A stretch of DNA of 64,000 bases, taken from the NCBI GenBank assembly GCA_047718615.1, contig JBDNRM010000001.1:23093-87092 (forward strand), in the 5' to 3' direction. This document shows positions 3,234 to 32,676 of this stretch, one piece after another. The DNA is from Bacillus sp. (in: firmicutes) (GTDB lineage Bacteria > Bacillota > Bacilli > Bacillales > Cytobacillaceae). Positions within the stretch are counted from its first letter, which is position 1, and each line of letters begins with the position of its first letter. Under the pieces are notes generated by a model. That model did not search any database and had not been told where the DNA came from. It worked only from the letters and a program-made list of their open reading frames with translations. The position numbers and the translations under genes were made by a program.

Positions 3234-3305
3234 CTGGGCTAGCTGGATTCGAACCAACGAGTGACGGAGTCAAAGTCCGTTGCCTTACCACTTGGCTATA
3301 GCCCA
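3234..3305 (-). tRNA. tRNA-Gln(TTG)
   Basis: Reverse complement TGGGCTATAGCCAAGTGGTAAGGCAACGGACTTTGACTCCGTC...GGTTCGAATCCAGCTAGCCCAG; anticodon at 3271-3273; CCA not encoded. Confidence 0.97.
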
Positions 3306-5494: not shown

Positions 5495-6616
5495 TTACTT
5501 TTCATTTACCTTTTTAGAGAACACATTTGCAACATCTGACTGCAATCCTATAGAAGCATGACTATAAGTATCCAACGTTATTTTTACAGAAGAATGACCT
5601 AAACGGTCAGCCACTATTTTAGGATTTGTGTTAAGTTCCAAAAGCAAAGTAGCATGAGTGTGTCTCATATCATGAAATCTAATTTTAGGAACGCCAGCAA
5701 TATTTATATATTTTCTAAATGGTCTATTTAAACTGGTTGGTCTAAATGGTTTTCCATCCGGATGACAGAAAATCAATCCGTTGTCCTGATATTCTGGACC
5801 GAACTTCAACCTGTAGGCATTGTTTTTGTTAATCCGTTCCTTTAAAATAGAGGAGACAAAAGAATCTATGGCAACTTTCCTATATGAAGAAGGTGTTTTC
5901 AGTAATCCAATCTGAACACCTTTTTTTGTTTCTGTAATACTCTGACGTATATTGATAATATTCTTGGAGAAGTCTGGGTCTATTCGTCTTAACCCCATAA
6001 CTTCTCCTTTTCTTAATCCAGTAAAGGCAGCAACTGTGAAAACATCATAATAAAATTCATCGTATTTTTTTGTAATGTTTAAAAAATGATTTAACTCTTC
6101 GAAGGACCAGGTATTTTTTTTCTTATTCTTAGGGTTGCTAATCGTAATGTTTTCTAAAGGACTTTTAGAAATTATTTCTAAATGTACAGCATGTTTAAAA
6201 ATCATTTTAGCAACGGATAATACCTTATGGGCTGTATCTGGTTGTAAACTATCTAACAATTTACTAACAAAAGCTTGTCCATGAACAGGTTTGATTTCCT
6301 GGATTTTATTGTTCCCAAAAAAAGGATTGATCCACTTATTAATCTTGATTGAATATTGTTCTGATGTTGTTTCTTTCAATTTATATTTGTAGCTTTCATA
6401 CCAATCAAGAGAAAACTCTTTGAATGTTAATTCTTTTGGTGCAATCCAAGAACCATTATTCACTTCATAGACAAGTTCGTTCAATGCAGTTTCAGCTTCT
6501 TTTTTCGTCTTGAAACCACTCTTTGTTTTTTGCTTCCGTTTCCCCGTAATCGGATCTTTTCCTATATCAACAGTATAACTCCATTTATCGCCCCTTTTGC
6601 GAACATAACCTTTCAT
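5495..6616 (-). CDS. int: Tyrosine integrase with N-terminal arm-binding domain
   Basis: MKGYVRKRGDKWSYTVDIGKDP N-terminus; TGLRKGE, FHDMRHTHAT, RLGH...TLDTYSH catalytic motifs; start placed at ATG 6616 rather than 6661. Confidence 0.95.
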   Translation of the reverse strand: MKGYVRKRGDKWSYTVDIGKDPITGKRKQKTKSGFKTKKEAETALNELVYEVNNGSWIAPKELTFKEFSLDWYESYKYKLKETTSEQYSIKINKWINPFFGNNKIQEIKPVHGQAFVSKLLDSLQPDTAHKVLSVAKMIFKHAVHLEIISKSPLENITISNPKNKKKNTWSFEELNHFLNITKKYDEFYYDVFTVAAFTGLRKGEVMGLRRIDPDFSKNIINIRQSITETKKGVQIGLLKTPSSYRKVAIDSFVSSILKERINKNNAYRLKFGPEYQDNGLIFCHPDGKPFRPTSLNRPFRKYINIAGVPKIRFHDMRHTHATLLLELNTNPKIVADRLGHSSVKITLDTYSHASIGLQSDVANVFSKKVNEK

Positions 6617-6717
6617 TGAGAAATCTCTCCCTTTTTTCGGCTTGTCCCTACAAGAAGGCAATCTTTCACTTTGATAATAACGTCAGCTGGCAACTCTTCA
6701 ACATAGATGATCTTCAC
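6613..6717 (-). CDS. 34-aa ORF translationally coupled to the integrase
   Basis: GGGGTGAGGAG RBS, GTG start, MKIIYVEELPADVIIKVKDCLLVGTSRKKGEISQ; TGA overlaps the integrase ATG. Confidence 0.55.
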   Translation of the reverse strand: MKIIYVEELPADVIIKVKDCLLVGTSRKKGEISQ

Positions 6718-30195: not shown

Positions 30196-31033
30196 ATGTC
30201 ATTAGGTAGAGCAGATAGCCCACAATGGGGTAGATTATTAGAACCAGGTTTAAGAAAGATTTTCTTCGAAAACTATCCGGAGAAATCAGAGCAATTTAAT
30301 CAGATTTTCCAAGTGAATAATTCCAAGAAACAAAAGGAATATGACTTAATCTTAGGAGGATTCACACCATGGGCAAGCAAAGCGGAAAAAGATCCACTTA
30401 CTTATCAAGATCCAGCAAACGGATATGAAATCACGTACACTCATGATGCGTTTGCAAGTGGATTTAAAGTAACTCGTGAAATGAATGATGATGAACAATA
30501 CAATGTAATCAATAAACTGCCGAAAGCATTGGCACATTCCGGACGTACAAAAGTTGATACAGACGCTGCTAAAGTATTAAATTCCGGTTTTGACGGTGTT
30601 ACTCGCCCGATATATGATGGGAAAGCATTATTTGCAGCAGATCATCCATTAAAAGGTGGCGGCACTGCATCCAATCTAATAACTGGTGCTCTTACTGATG
30701 CAAACTTAAAGATTGCTATTCAAGCAATGCACAGTGCTCCTGATGAAACAGGAAATAAAATTCAGTACAAACCATCTAAATTAATTGTGCCAAGATCATT
30801 AGAGTTCGTCGCACGTGAAATTGTTGGTTCAGAGCGTAAAAGCGGTACTGACTTCAACGACATGAACACATTGAAAGGTTCTCTTGAAGTTGTAGTTTAT
30901 GACTACTTAACTGACAGTGACGCTTGGTTCATCCAAGATCCAAATGTAAGTGAGTTAAACTTCTTCTGGAGGGTGAAACCGGAGTTCAAGCATGAAGAGG
31001 ACTTCGATACACTAGAAGCGAAATATCGCGGGT
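30196..31033 (+). CDS. Major capsid protein, exon 1
   Basis: LLEPGLRKIF...; PSKLIVP..LE..A; DAWF; reading frame resumes after the group I intron. Confidence 0.9.
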
Positions 31034-31257
31034 TAACTGCATAGCCCCTATAATCAGTGATGGTTATAGCAAACCGTGAATATGCTGGAAACTCCTTAGA
31101 GCCTTCAATACGAGCGCAAGCCGTGACAATTTGAAGGATTGGACAATCAGCAGGGACAGCCATTTAGGAAGCCCTCAACGACTACCAAGCGGCATCTTAT
31201 GAAGATGATGGTATAGTCTACTCCCTATAAAATATGGCGAAAGCCAGGGTATTAAGG
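31034..31257 (+). ncRNA. Group I self-splicing intron, 224 nt, no internal ORF
   Basis: 5' exon ends in U with P1 GGGT/GCCC; P2 with GNRA loop; P4 TGCTG/CAGCA; P7 GACTA/TAGTC; P8 CATCTT/AAGATG; P9 TGGC-GAAA-GCCA; terminal G; splicing restores the frame. Confidence 0.92.
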
Positions 31258-31319
31258 ACATGCGTTACAGTTATGGAGTATCGAACTTCAGAGGAATTGT
31301 AGGAAGCACAGGAGCATAA
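31258..31319 (+). CDS. Major capsid protein, exon 2 (spliced product 299 aa)
   Basis: GGG T|AC ATG gives ...KYRGYMRYSYGVSNFRGIVGSTGA-stop. Confidence 0.9.
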
Positions 31320-31403
31320 TATTTATCCCTTTAACGTAGCGGATAATGAGCTTCAAATGGTATAATATAGGTAGAATAAATCACTGCCTATATTATATCT
31401 GAG

Positions 31404-31943
31404 GTGAAAATATTGGGGCGTTATGAAGCTAATCATTCATGGATTCAAAATATTGATGAAGAATACATCATTACTCTGTATACAAAAGATAATATGAGTC
31501 TTACAGCTATTTCAAAACTATTAGGTTACGACAGGGGTACTGTTAAAAGACGTCTTGAAAAGAATGGTGTTGACATTGTTAGAAAGCCCCGTTCTGACAA
31601 ATCGAAAGATAATAGTCCTGCTATTAGGAAAGTCTACTATAAATATGGACTTCAAGCTGAAAGACGAGGATATAATTTCGATATTCCTTATGAATTTTTC
31701 ACCTATTTAACTTCACAAAAATGTCATTATTGTGGAAATAAGCCATTATCAAAAGAAATCACTAGAAGTGGACATGTTTATGTGTTTAATGGTTTAGATC
31801 GAATTGATAATAACAAACATTATACTTTGGACAATGTGATTCCATGTTGTAAGATTTGTAATCAAATGAAAAGTAATTTGGAACATCATGTCTTTATAGA
31901 ACAAGTAAGGAAAATATATTTGAAGTATCAACAAGAACTTTAA
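31404..31943 (+). CDS. Free-standing HNH/His-Me endonuclease with N-terminal HTH (likely start TTG 31413)
   Basis: CHYCG...NGLDRIDN..Y..DNVIPCCKICNQMK; GAGGTG RBS 6 nt before the TTG. Confidence 0.8.
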   Translation: MKILGRYEANHSWIQNIDEEYIITLYTKDNMSLTAISKLLGYDRGTVKRRLEKNGVDIVRKPRSDKSKDNSPAIRKVYYKYGLQAERRGYNFDIPYEFFTYLTSQKCHYCGNKPLSKEITRSGHVYVFNGLDRIDNNKHYTLDNVIPCCKICNQMKSNLEHHVFIEQVRKIYLKYQQEL

Positions 31944-31957
31944 AGGAGCTGGATCAT

Positions 31958-32086
31958 ATGGCTAAATTACCTACTAGCGAAGATGGGAAGTTATTAGCGC
32001 AATATATTAATGAAAAACTTTCTGAGATGAAAGAAGAGATCATTAAAGAAATTAAAGAATCTAAAAAAGAGACAAAAACAAAGTAG
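31958..32086 (+). CDS. 42-aa hypothetical protein after the capsid gene
   Basis: AAAGGAG RBS; MAKLPTSEDGKLLAQYINEKL...; followed by a terminator. Confidence 0.6.
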   Translation: MAKLPTSEDGKLLAQYINEKLSEMKEEIIKEIKESKKETKTK

Positions 32087-32124: not shown

Positions 32125-32676
32125 ATGAACCTTCGAGACATGATTAATGAGGTATTGAAAGATATTGATGATTACCTTTCTGATTCAGATATTACCGGCT
32201 GGATTAACAGAGCATTGGATGACCTGACACCAGTAGCAAAATATCAAAAAATGAGCGTAGTTTCATTGGTTGCAACAGATAAAAGTATCTTATTACCGGA
32301 TGATGTAGAAGAAATCGTTTTGTTAACGGACGATGAACAGGACTATAACGAAATTAATTTGAAAGATAAAACAGGATGCGGCTATAAAAAGTGGGGAAAC
32401 GTTTTAAGTTTTCAGCCTGTTTTTGATATAGATAAAGACTTCACCTTATATTATTATGCGAAATTACCGCACCTTGCAGCTGATACAGATATACCGGTCA
32501 TACGATCTGATTTCCATGATTTATTAGTCTTGTATGCTACTGCAAAAGCCAAGTACAAAGACGAGGTTATGGAAATGCATCAAGGTACCATGCAGGAATA
32601 CTTGGAGAGAAAACGCCAGTATATTGCTGCAGTGTCGAGTGATAATAACGAAGCATACCAAGTGAAGCTTCTGTAA
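32125..32676 (+). CDS. Head-tail adaptor (P22 gp4 / T7 gp11-like position)
   Basis: Helical N-terminus, WINRAL.DL, YYA...L..D.D.P.I..DFHDLLVLYA. Confidence 0.7.
   Translation: MNLRDMINEVLKDIDDYLSDSDITGWINRALDDLTPVAKYQKMSVVSLVATDKSILLPDDVEEIVLLTDDEQDYNEINLKDKTGCGYKKWGNVLSFQPVFDIDKDFTLYYYAKLPHLAADTDIPVIRSDFHDLLVLYATAKAKYKDEVMEMHQGTMQEYLERKRQYIAAVSSDNNEAYQVKLL

What the first reader, a model, noticed from the sequence alone, without database searches (positions are those of the whole stretch)
31034..31943. Intron plus adjacent free-standing HNH nuclease: candidate collaborative homing
Seen: the intron has no ORF, yet an HNH gene with an N-terminal HTH starts about 90 bp after the capsid stop, between the capsid gene and its small downstream gene. 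Established: collaborative homing between an ORF-less intron and a neighbouring free-standing endonuclease is described in cyanophage S-PM2 (F-CphI/psbA) and in T3/T7-like phages. Inference: this nuclease cuts intron-less capsid alleles near the insertion site, and the intron protects its own genome.
Basis: partly seen in the sequence, partly recalled or inferred. Interest (0 to 1): 0.7.

Follow-up and report, generated by a model that had tools for sequence, protein, structure and literature searches.

The report
Capsid intron travelling with neighbouring nuclease gene
A Bacillus-type prophage has a small self-splicing intron in its capsid gene and a separate DNA-cutting enzyme gene just after it; the two are gained or lost together as one 0.9-kb block, a new example of a known selfish-DNA partnership whose cutting site is still unproven.

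Summary
A 224-nt group I intron with no ORF (31034-31257) splits the Mu gpT-like capsid gene 62 nt before its stop. A free-standing gene for an HTH plus PacI-type HNH nuclease (31413-31943, 176 aa) starts 93 nt after the capsid stop.

- Among close relatives (capsid at least 72% identical), intron and HNH go together. A contig 93-99% identical to Bacillus phage PK1 downstream has both. PK1, the window's nearest relative (94% capsid) and five others have neither.
- The block that differs includes exon 2.
- The six nearest HNH homologues all sit just after a capsid gene. Five of them, in a more distant phage clade, have no intron and an intact insertion site. So this HNH family does not need the intron to avoid cutting its own genome.
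- In that clade the HNH-linked nucleotide pattern starts 6 nt after the insertion site.

My reading is that the HNH drives joint gene conversion of itself and the intron (about 0.55). Whether it cuts exactly at the insertion site (collaborative homing) or nearby (trans homing) is open. This is a new member of a known kind, of moderate interest.

The parts
30196..31033 (+). Major capsid gene, exon 1 (Mu gpT-like, HK97 fold); ends in ...CGCGGGT, the U of the P1 U.G pair
   Evidence: Pfam PF10124 E 1e-20 and PF25209; 80-94% identical to uninterrupted capsids of PK1, L133 and L135
31034..31257 (+). Group I intron with no ORF, 224 nt. P1 is GGGU|UA/UAGCCC. It has P2-P9 with a P3/P7 pseudoknot and a terminal G at 31257
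   Evidence: Rfam RF00028 45.7 bits, E 8e-11; covariation on alignment A1; homologous introns in Bacillus phage WH1 DNA pol III alpha, Lak, Acinetobacter and Staphylococcus phages and 66 IMG/VR contigs; exact absence in intron-less alleles
31258..31319 (+). Capsid exon 2 (62 nt including the TAA stop); part of the block that moves with the intron and the HNH
   Evidence: Splicing restores ...YMRYSYGVSNFRGIVGSTGA*. L060 exon 2 is only 75% identical to PK1, while downstream DNA is 93-99% identical. Ser codon AGY and the GGAGCATAA end are shared only by the two intron-bearing alleles among the six compared
31358..31366 (+). Extended -10 promoter-like element TGGTATAAT, the HNH cassette's own promoter (inferred)
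   Evidence: A promoter-like -10 stands at the equivalent position in all seven cassettes read. L062 has a full TTGACA-17-TATAAT. The consensus scan did not list this site because its -35 is weak
31350..31405 (+). Strong hairpin: a 16-bp stem (31359-31374 with 31384-31399) plus 6 outer pairs (31350-31355 with 31400-31405). It contains the -10 and sequesters the GAGGTG Shine-Dalgarno of the HNH gene
   Evidence: RNA fold -29.8 kcal/mol, z -5.7. A comparable hairpin is present in all six other cassettes, z -3.7 to -6.5
31413..31943 (+). Free-standing endonuclease gene, 176 aa (longest ORF from GTG 31404). Residue numbers below follow that 179-aa ORF. N-terminal three-helix HTH (about residues 19-53), C-terminal PacI-type His-Me/HNH domain with C107xxC110, D132-R-x-D135, Y140, N144, C148-C149xxC152-N153
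   Evidence: purifying selection, dN/dS 0.08-0.33; absent from the nearest relatives
31958..32086 (+). Small conserved 42-aa gene (MAKLPTSEDGK...). In relatives that lack the HNH it follows the capsid terminator directly. Its first ~50 nt belong to the exchanged block in L060
32085..32112 (+). Intrinsic terminator after the small gene
32125..32676 (+). SU10-type head-tail adaptor gene; the backbone flank used to place relatives
   Evidence: Pfam PF24175 E 2e-16; identity table

Best explanation
The intron and the HNH gene belong to one selfish block of about 0.9-1 kb: intron, capsid exon 2, a promoter/hairpin leader, the HNH gene and the first ~50 nt of the next gene.

Proposed mechanism:
1. 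The HNH is a free-standing homing-type endonuclease with an HTH for site recognition and a PacI-type His-Me finger for cutting.
2. When this phage meets a relative that lacks the block, the enzyme cuts or nicks that relative's DNA in, or just after, the last ~70 bp of the capsid gene.
3. Repair from the donor copies the HNH gene and, with it, exon 2 and the intron.
4. The intron has no endonuclease of its own. It stays harmless by self-splicing and is mobilised in trans.

Whether the cut falls exactly at the intron insertion site is undecided. If it does, the intron also shields the donor (collaborative homing in the strict sense, about 0.4 of this reading). If it falls some tens of bases away, this is trans homing as with T4 mobE (about 0.6).

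Shown: both elements exist, the protein is intact and under selection, the elements are present or absent together on two backbones, and exon 2 moves with them. Inferred: nuclease activity, the target site, the direction of transfer, and the regulation by promoter and hairpin.
For: 1. Real intron and exact restoration of the capsid reading frame.
2. The HNH is intact. All PacI-type catalytic and zinc residues are invariant in 11 homologues, including Y140, which has the same spacing as the catalytic Tyr of PacI. The model's best PDB match is PacI. dN/dS is 0.08-0.33.
3. The HNH is optional, as expected of a mobile gene.
   - It is absent from PK1, L216, L133, L135, L004/L008, L005 and L006.
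   - It is absent from 400 genomes of the same order.
   - In the distant clade it is absent from 54 of 59 distinct capsid loci counted.
4. All six nearest homologues (49-63% identical) lie immediately downstream of a capsid gene of SU10-like phages. This implies a target in or beside the conserved capsid 3' end. HNH identity and capsid identity are not congruent: L062 and L066 share 80% capsid but 49% HNH identity.
5. Joint polymorphism on two backbones.
   - L060 has the same intron, exon 2 and HNH. Its adaptor is 97% identical in protein to PK1, which has neither element.
   - The window's closest capsid relative, L133 (94%), has neither.
   - The window and L060 blocks align continuously from intron to HNH at 70-78% nucleotide identity.
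6. In the five intron-less genomes that carry the HNH, HNH-associated nucleotides lie only from +18 to +65, counted from the K codon of KYRG. The insertion site is at +12/+13.
   - Example: Arg codon CGT in 5/5 against 11/52.
   - Permutation test: +12..+69 gives 0/1000; -69..0 gives P 0.43.
7. Precedents.
   - Collaborative homing of S-PM2 psbA/F-CphI: PMC6083498, PMC3984707.
   - Trans homing by T4 mobE within co-conversion distance: PMC2790892.
Against: - No cleavage or splicing data exist.
- Five genomes carry the HNH with no intron and an intact insertion site, so the intron is not required for immunity in this family.
- The intron and the HNH are 146 nt apart, so co-occurrence could be plain linkage.
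- There are only two independent intron-plus-HNH cases, and for L060 exon 1 is not on the contig.
- The window and L060 blocks have diverged about as much (70-78% nucleotide identity) as the window and PK1 capsid regions (69.7%). Old vertical inheritance with repeated block loss is therefore not excluded.
- The haplotype boundary near the insertion site could simply be decay of linkage about 60 nt from the HNH cassette. It rests on five genomes, and no single site survives correction for 309 positions.
- The one PacI-like phage HNH tested so far (Skunavirus phi93) showed no marker exclusion (PMC12724721).
- None of 80 IMG/VR relatives of this nuclease domain has an intron of this family within 3 kb.
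Confidence: 0.55

Rival explanations
1. Strict collaborative homing. The HNH recognises the uninterrupted ...CGCGGGT/ACATGCGTTA... sequence and cuts there. The intron splits this site and is what makes the donor genome immune. Intron-less carriers of related HNHs would be immune through synonymous changes next to the site, such as CGT instead of AGA.
For: - Same layout as S-PM2 psbA/F-CphI (PMC6083498).
- The intron lies 62 nt from the gene end, so resolution between the intron and the HNH is unlikely.
- Perfect co-occurrence in the close clade.
- The HNH-associated haplotype begins 6 nt after the insertion site. All five intron-less carriers of this HNH family have CGT where most HNH-less genomes of their clade have AGA.
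Against: - L061 carries an HNH 55% identical to the window's and has CGCGGGTATATGCGTTACAGT uninterrupted. This is one base away from the window's spliced junction.
- Close-clade genomes without the HNH already have CGT, so CGT cannot be a general immunity mark.
- The association statistics rest on five genomes.
Confidence: 0.25
2. Two independent selfish insertions in a hotspot, linked only by proximity. The capsid 3' end attracts introns, the intergenic space attracts endonuclease genes, and ordinary homologous recombination exchanges the whole neighbourhood. The HNH neither cuts near the intron nor helps it spread.
For: - A relative (L134, capsid 83% identical) has a different group I intron with its own HNH_3 gene 59 nt upstream in the same capsid gene, and no free-standing HNH.
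- This intron family sits in many unrelated phage genes, nearly always without this HNH.
- The HNH occurs without the intron in five genomes.
- Block divergence is similar to backbone divergence.
Against: - No genome was seen with this intron and without the HNH.
- Both elements are missing together from the nearest relatives on two backbones.
- The HNH protein is under purifying selection and always lies next to the capsid gene, so it does something tied to this locus.
Confidence: 0.15
3. The HNH is kept for a function other than its own homing. It could be a weapon against co-infecting relatives or resident prophages, cutting their capsid genes as the PhiPA3 intron endonuclease does. Or it could be an HTH-based regulator. 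In either case the intron would be unrelated or only a shield.
For: - Long-term purifying selection.
- The cassette has its own promoter and a leader hairpin.
- The HTH resembles sigma region 4.
- PHROGs lists weak matches to Srd and sigma-decoy families.
- Precedent: PMC11620839, seen in the list (abstract only).
Against: - The gene is dispensable: the nearest relatives lack it.
- The catalytic residues are invariant, which argues against a purely regulatory protein.
- Interference and homing are not exclusive, so this is more an added benefit than a true rival.
Confidence: 0.05

Closest known systems
Collaborative homing: Synechococcus phage S-PM2 psbA intron plus free-standing F-CphI (Zeng, Bonocora & Shub 2009; PMC6083498). 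Also T3/T7-like DNA polymerase introns with a neighbouring HNH gene (Bonocora & Shub 2009; paper not held)
   Same: A group I intron of about 210-225 nt with no ORF sits in a highly conserved part of an essential or highly expressed gene. A free-standing endonuclease gene lies directly downstream of that gene. The two are found together.
   Different: - Cleavage at the insertion site and protection by the intron are demonstrated there and untested here.
- The nuclease here is PacI-like (D-R-x-D...Y...N). It is not of the F-CphI DHHRN/Endo VII family, because the invariant His is Arg here.
- The host gene is a capsid gene of a temperate Bacillus-type SU10-like phage.
- Related HNH genes here also occur without any intron.
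Trans homing: T4 mobE mobilising the nrdB intron with defunct I-TevIII (Wilson & Edgell 2009, PMC2790892)
   Same: A free-standing HNH-type endonuclease lies within co-conversion distance of an intron that cannot move by itself. The intervening exon sequence is co-converted. Expression of the endonuclease gene is restrained by RNA structure.
   Different: There the nick is mapped about 700 bp from the intron, not at its insertion site, and dependence on mobE was shown genetically. Here the distance is 146 nt and nothing is mapped.
PacI restriction endonuclease (PDB 3ldy/3m7k; His-Me finger group 20 of PMC5714182) and PacI-like HNH genes of lactococcal Skunavirus phages (PMC12724721)
   Same: ββα-metal fold with two Cys pairs. 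The catalytic His is replaced, with a conserved Tyr five residues after D-R-x-D. An HTH-like domain lies N-terminal to the nuclease.
   Different: Sequence identity is only about 20%. PacI is a bacterial rare-cutting restriction enzyme. No PacI-like enzyme has been shown to be a homing endonuclease, and the one Skunavirus member tested was inactive in marker exclusion.
Group I introns in phage capsid genes (Tuc2009 and mycobacteriophage LittleE, PMC3706429). ICP1 terminase intron with an adjacent T5orf172 endonuclease gene (PMC10448857)
   Same: Self-splicing introns in virion structural genes. In ICP1 the endonuclease gene lies beside the intron rather than inside it.
   Different: The LittleE intron carries its own endonuclease gene. 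For ICP1 the authors favour turnover of endonuclease genes as the origin. None of these involves this HNH family.

Membership tests
Group I intron (Rfam RF00028) | Match to the covariance model at the curated threshold | tested here: inconclusive
   45.7 bits against a gathering score of 50; E 8e-11 over 271 nt, full-length match 1-253. The searches of 3 kb and 64 kb missed it through the speed filters.
Group I intron (Rfam RF00028) | Conserved core helices P3-P9 with the P3/P7 pseudoknot, supported by covariation | tested here: met
   90.6% of cells paired against 34-44% for slid partners. 34 of 61 pairs have compensatory changes. P2, P3, P4, P5a, P6, P8 and P9a all covary. P7 is invariant.
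Group I intron (Rfam RF00028) | U at the end of the 5' exon paired with G in P1; G as the last intron base; excision restores the host reading frame | tested here: met
   GGGU|UA/UAGCCC and G at 31257, read from the sequence. The spliced ORF equals the uninterrupted homologues.
Group I intron (Rfam RF00028) | Self-splicing shown on RNA | not testable with these tools
Collaborative homing pair (S-PM2 psbA/F-CphI type) | An ORF-less intron and a free-standing endonuclease gene beside the interrupted gene | tested here: met
Collaborative homing pair (S-PM2 psbA/F-CphI type) | The endonuclease cleaves intron-less alleles at the intron insertion site | not testable with these tools
   Only indirect evidence: the HNH-linked haplotype begins 6 nt after the site.
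Collaborative homing pair (S-PM2 psbA/F-CphI type) | The intron is what protects the donor genome from its own endonuclease | tested here: inconclusive
   Five genomes with a related HNH (49-55% identical) have no intron and an intact site. The specificity of each enzyme is unknown.
Collaborative homing pair (S-PM2 psbA/F-CphI type) | The intron and the endonuclease gene are inherited together | tested here: met
   Close clade: both elements in 2 genomes (the second known only from the intron's 3' part onward), neither in 7, and no genome with only one of the two. An eighth, L134, has a different intron and no free-standing HNH. Linkage alone could also give this.
Trans homing (T4 mobE / nrdB intron type) | A functional free-standing endonuclease gene within co-conversion distance (under about 2 kb) of an intron that cannot move by itself | tested here: met
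   The intron end is 146 nt from the HNH ORF. Exon 2 is co-exchanged. That the HNH is functional is inferred from conservation.
F-CphI / DHHRN (Endo VII motif) homing endonucleases | Central DHDH with an invariant first His (H41 of T4 Endo VII) between CX2-4C and CX2C (PMC6083498) | tested here: not met
   The motif here is L-D-R-I-D. Arg133 is invariant in 11 homologues. The PHROG label 'endonuclease VII' is therefore only a loose name.
PacI-like His-Me finger nucleases (group 20, PMC5714182) | ββα-metal fold, two Cys pairs, no catalytic His, a conserved Tyr in the loop, an N-terminal HTH-like domain | tested here: met
   phmmer to 3ldy gives E 0.007, aligning D-R-x-D, Y and N. Foldseek gives E 1.5e-4, probability 1.0. 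The residues are invariant. HTH helices at residues 19-53.
Packaging-associated HNH (HK97 gp74 / GVE2-like, next to terminase) | Present in all related phages and adjacent to the terminase or portal genes | tested here: not met
   It lies between the capsid and adaptor genes and is absent from the nearest relatives.

The most novel reading that the evidence does not exclude
One family of free-standing PacI-type endonucleases targets the invariant Y-M-R-Y codons at the end of SU10-like capsid genes and has solved self-immunity in two ways. The first is synonymous recoding next to the cut site (CGT for AGA) in one phage clade. [quoted passage not shown] If so, this would be a natural series showing how a collaborative homing pair arises, and the first homing function for the Tyr-type (PacI-like) His-Me finger.
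Probability: 0.25. Interest if true: 0.7.

Novelty: new member of a known kind. Interest (0 to 1): 0.5.

Why it matters
Collaborative and trans homing are the proposed routes by which introns and endonuclease genes first come together, but few natural pairs have been described.

This locus offers a tractable pair:
- A cultured recipient without the block exists (Bacillus phage PK1), and a near-identical backbone carries the block.
- The nuclease class has no known homing member.
- Relatives hold the nuclease without the intron.

The origin and the immunity question can therefore be tested directly.

There is also a practical point for annotation. The capsid gene is called truncated (282 aa), and the standard Rfam scan misses the intron unless the search space is small.

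Tried and rejected
- Rfam at default settings found no intron. Only the 271-nt search did.
- A search for a truncated PK1-like capsid protein to reach L060's exon 1 found none.
- A scan of JGI metagenomes for the intron 3' end joined to capsid exon 2 gave 0 matches. None of 66 IMG/VR contigs with the intron 17-mer has the capsid context.
- General association of this nuclease domain with this intron family: 0 of 80 IMG/VR loci. Only one of 66 intron loci has an HNH relative nearby, and it lies 2 kb away on the other strand.
- A broad co-conversion tract seen as raised third-codon-position identity among HNH carriers: not found. Only site-wise association downstream of the insertion site appeared.
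- Identity profile of the window against L133, to look for a tract upstream of the intron: the baseline divergence of about 13% is too high to see one.
- F-CphI family membership: rejected, because the His is absent.
- A packaging-HNH role: rejected, because the gene is optional and not next to the terminase.
- The original paper by Bonocora & Shub (2009) is not held. My account of the T3-like case rests on reviews (PMC3984707, PMC10448857).
All are full length, so they lack the intron.
Full report
WHAT IS THERE

The window lies in a 43,257-bp SU10/PK1-like prophage of a 35%-GC Bacillus-type genome.

Capsid gene and intron
- The Mu gpT-like major capsid ORF (30196-31044) stops prematurely at ...KYRGLTA*.
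- Removing 31034-31257 joins ...CGCGGGT to ACATGCG... This gives a 299-aa capsid protein ending EAKYRG|YMRYSYGVSNFRGIVGSTGA.
- Uninterrupted capsid genes read the same residues across the junction. These are Bacillus phage PK1 (80% identical), L133 (94%), L135, L216, three prophages of the same bacterial family and more than 100 more distant contigs.

The 224-nt insert is a genuine group I intron.
- Rfam RF00028 matches it end to end at 45.7 bits, E 8e-11 (gathering score 50), when only 271 nt are searched. The larger searches lost it in the speed filters.
- BLAST finds homologous introns in the DNA pol III alpha gene of Bacillus phage WH1 (78%). It also finds them in Lak, Acinetobacter, Pseudomonas, Clostridioides (annotated Intron_gpI) and Twort-like Staphylococcus phages.
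- A 17-mer of the intron core occurs in 66 IMG/VR contigs.
- On an alignment of nine family members, my P1-P9 structure with the P3/P7 pseudoknot has 90.6% of cells paired, against 34-44% for slid controls. 34 of 61 pairs show compensatory changes.
- P1 is GGGU|UA/UAGCCC with the U.G pair at the splice site, and the last base is G.
- The intron has stops in all frames.
- Its closest full-length relatives (84%) interrupt a tape-measure gene. The family therefore moves between unrelated phage genes.

The HNH gene
- Its longest ORF starts at GTG 31404. The real start is probably TTG 31413, 6 nt after GAGGTG. This gives 176 aa, as in the database protein P0001, and places the start 93 nt after the capsid stop.
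- The structure model (pLDDT 84) shows a three-helix HTH (residues 19-53, numbered from the 179-aa ORF), a linker and a ββα-metal domain.
- The best PDB match by sequence (3ldy, E 0.007) and by fold (E 1.5e-4, probability 1.0) is the restriction enzyme PacI.
- The motif C107xxC110 ... G-L-D132-R-x-D135 ... Y140 ... N144 ... P-C148-C149xxC152-N153 ... K156 is invariant in 11 homologues.
- As in PacI, the usual catalytic His is missing. A Tyr stands five residues after D-R-x-D, and in PacI this Tyr takes over the His role (PMC5714182).
- The protein is therefore not a member of the F-CphI/DHHRN (Endo VII) family, which requires that His (PMC6083498).
- dN/dS between homologues is 0.08-0.33, so the protein is kept functional.

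WHERE ELSE IT OCCURS

HNH homologues
- The six nearest homologues (49-63% identical) all lie immediately downstream of the major capsid gene of SU10-like phages, before the small gene and the adaptor.
- No homologue exists in 400 genomes of the same order. No close one exists in GenBank phages or IMG/VR, although the nuclease domain itself is common there at 45% identity or less.

Close clade (capsid at least 72% identical)
- L060 carries the closest HNH (63%). Its first 130 nt are the 3' part of the same intron, followed by exon 2, a homologous leader and the HNH. The window and L060 align continuously over this stretch at 78% nucleotide identity and over the HNH at 70%.
- Downstream, L060 is PK1. 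From about 50 nt into the small gene onward it is 93-99% identical in DNA, and the adaptor is 97% identical in protein. PK1 and its 99% twin L216 have neither the intron nor the HNH.
- L060's exon 2 is only 75% identical to PK1's. It shares with the window a Ser AGY codon and the GGAGCATAA end, which none of the four intron-less alleles compared has.
- The window's nearest relative, L133, also has neither element, and nor do L135, L004/L008, L005 and L006.
- Tally for this clade: both elements in 2 genomes, neither in 7, and no genome with only one of the two.
- One more relative, L134, has a different group I intron (Rfam E 6e-8) carrying its own I-HmuI-type HNH_3 gene. It sits 59 nt upstream in the same capsid gene, and L134 has no free-standing HNH.

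Distant clade (capsids of 338-345 aa, about 50% identical)
- Five genomes (L061, L062/L063, L064, L065, L066) have the HNH in the same place. Their capsid genes are uninterrupted, and the insertion-site sequence is intact.
- L061 reads CGCGGGTATATGCGTTACAGT, one base away from the window's spliced junction.
- Most members of that clade lack the HNH.

- The co-occurrence test is passed within the close clade, and on two different backbones. This shows that intron, exon 2 and HNH are exchanged as one block.
- Two elements 146 nt apart would also stay together through linkage alone. The direction (gain by L060 or loss by PK1) cannot be read without L060's exon 1.
- The HNH carriers that lack the intron show that this endonuclease family can live beside an intact insertion site. 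The intron is therefore not a general requirement for self-immunity.

One new observation bears on the cut site.
- I compared the five intron-less HNH carriers with 52-54 HNH-less genomes of the same clade.
- Nucleotides associated with the HNH lie only between +18 and +65, counted from the K codon of KYRG. The insertion site is at +12/+13.
- Examples: Arg codon CGT in 5/5 against 11/52, although these genomes otherwise mostly use AGA or AGG; and AGG in 4/5 against 4/52.
- A label-permutation test gives 0/1000 for +12..+69, P 0.43 for the 69 nt just upstream, and P 0.07-0.12 further upstream.
- This fits a break near the insertion site with repair running from there through the HNH gene. It also fits immunity changes beside the site.
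- It equally fits simple decay of linkage about 60 nt from the cassette. It rests on five genomes, and no single position survives correction for 309 tests. I treat it as a lead only.

REGULATION (INFERRED)

- Each of the seven cassettes has a sigma-A-type promoter. L062 has TTGACA-17-TATAAT, and the window has TGGTATAAT at 31358-31366.
- The -10 of this promoter abuts or lies within a strong hairpin that is followed by the Shine-Dalgarno.
- In the window the fold (-29.8 kcal/mol, z -5.7) pairs 31350-31355 with the SD at 31400-31405.
- Transcripts reading through from the capsid gene would contain the whole hairpin, which masks the SD. Transcripts starting about 7 nt after the -10 would lack its 5' arm.
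- I recall a similar arrangement for T4 homing endonuclease genes, and RNA structure restraining mobE is reported in PMC2790892. This comparison is from memory and was not tested.

MOST LIKELY MECHANISM

- The HNH is a free-standing homing-type endonuclease that breaks HNH-less capsid loci in or just after the last ~70 bp of the capsid gene.
- Repair from the donor copies the HNH, exon 2 and the intron. The intron is mobilised in trans and stays harmless by splicing (confidence 0.55).
- Within this reading I put about 0.4 on a cut at the insertion site with the intron as shield (collaborative homing). I put about 0.6 on a nearby cut (trans homing, as for T4 mobE, PMC2790892).
- Rivals: unrelated neighbours held together by linkage (0.15), and an HNH kept mainly for competition or regulation (0.05).

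NOVELTY

- The kind of arrangement is known: S-PM2, T3-like phages, T4 mobE and the ICP1 terminase (PMC3984707, PMC2790892, PMC10448857).
- Notes from this scan list a dozen other capsid introns with a neighbouring free-standing HNH (unchecked).
- New here are the nuclease class, the comparative evidence for block exchange on two backbones, and the natural series of relatives.
  - The nuclease is PacI-like. No member of that class has a demonstrated homing role, and the one Skunavirus member tested was inactive (PMC12724721).
  - The series of relatives has four states: the HNH alone, the HNH plus the intron, neither element, or a different intron with an internal endonuclease gene.
- I rate it a new member of a known kind, interest 0.5.

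LIMITS

- Only two independent intron-plus-HNH genomes are known.
- The look-up caps left about ten close-clade capsids unchecked for the HNH.

Noticed in passing
window 5404-64000 (C1:28496-115027 of the assembly): The 43,257-bp prophage is present as a perfect head-to-tail dimer (99.995% identity over 43,275 bp; the two copies overlap by 18 bp, probably the att core), flanked by host DNA. It is either a tandem double lysogen or an assembly of replicating or concatemeric phage DNA. An integrase-sized ORF (5495-6661, minus strand) lies at the left end, and a tRNA gene lies at 3234-3305.
   Followed up: partly
L134 4780-5567 (JGI 3300080651, Ga0671532_0000294): A relative with an 83% identical capsid has a different group I intron of about 790 nt (Rfam E 6e-8). 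It carries an I-HmuI-type HNH_3 gene and is inserted after ...TGGAGGGT, 59 nt upstream of the window's insertion site (equivalent to window 30974/30975). The last ~120 nt of this capsid gene are thus an intron hotspot. The same contig has a tyrosine-recombinase gene between the portal and scaffold genes.
   Followed up: partly
window 31350-31405; L060 196-300; L061 2003-2140; L062 4918-5005; L064, L065, L066: Every HNH cassette has a sigma-A-like promoter whose -10 abuts or lies inside a strong hairpin (z -3.7 to -6.5) just before the Shine-Dalgarno. In the window the outer pairs mask the SD. This may be an insulation device: read-through capsid transcripts are blocked, while transcripts from the cassette's own promoter are translatable.
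   Followed up: partly
window 31034-31257: Rfam's group I model misses this intron in a whole-window gathering search and in a 3-kb E-value search, but scores 45.7 bits (E 8e-11) when 271 nt are searched. Small phage introns of this family are probably under-annotated. The capsid gene is called as a truncated 282-aa protein.
   Followed up: yes
L105 5080-5300, L123, L121, L125 (IMG/VR): The closest full-length relatives of the intron (77-84% identical, also without an ORF) interrupt a tail tape-measure gene. Another relative (78%) lies in the DNA pol III alpha gene of Bacillus phage vB_BceM_WH1, which is annotated as three separate CDSs.
   Followed up: partly
L061-L066 compared with L222-L301, capsid codon for the R of Y-M-R-Y: Intron-less phages that carry the HNH have CGT at this Arg codon (5/5), although most of their other Arg codons nearby are AGA or AGG. 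HNH-less relatives mostly have AGA (CGT in 11/52). This could be a co-conversion footprint or an immunity change.
   Followed up: partly
window 31404-31415: The longest HNH ORF starts at GTG 31404, inside the Shine-Dalgarno GAGGTG. TTG 31413 is the more likely start codon (176 aa).
   Followed up: yes
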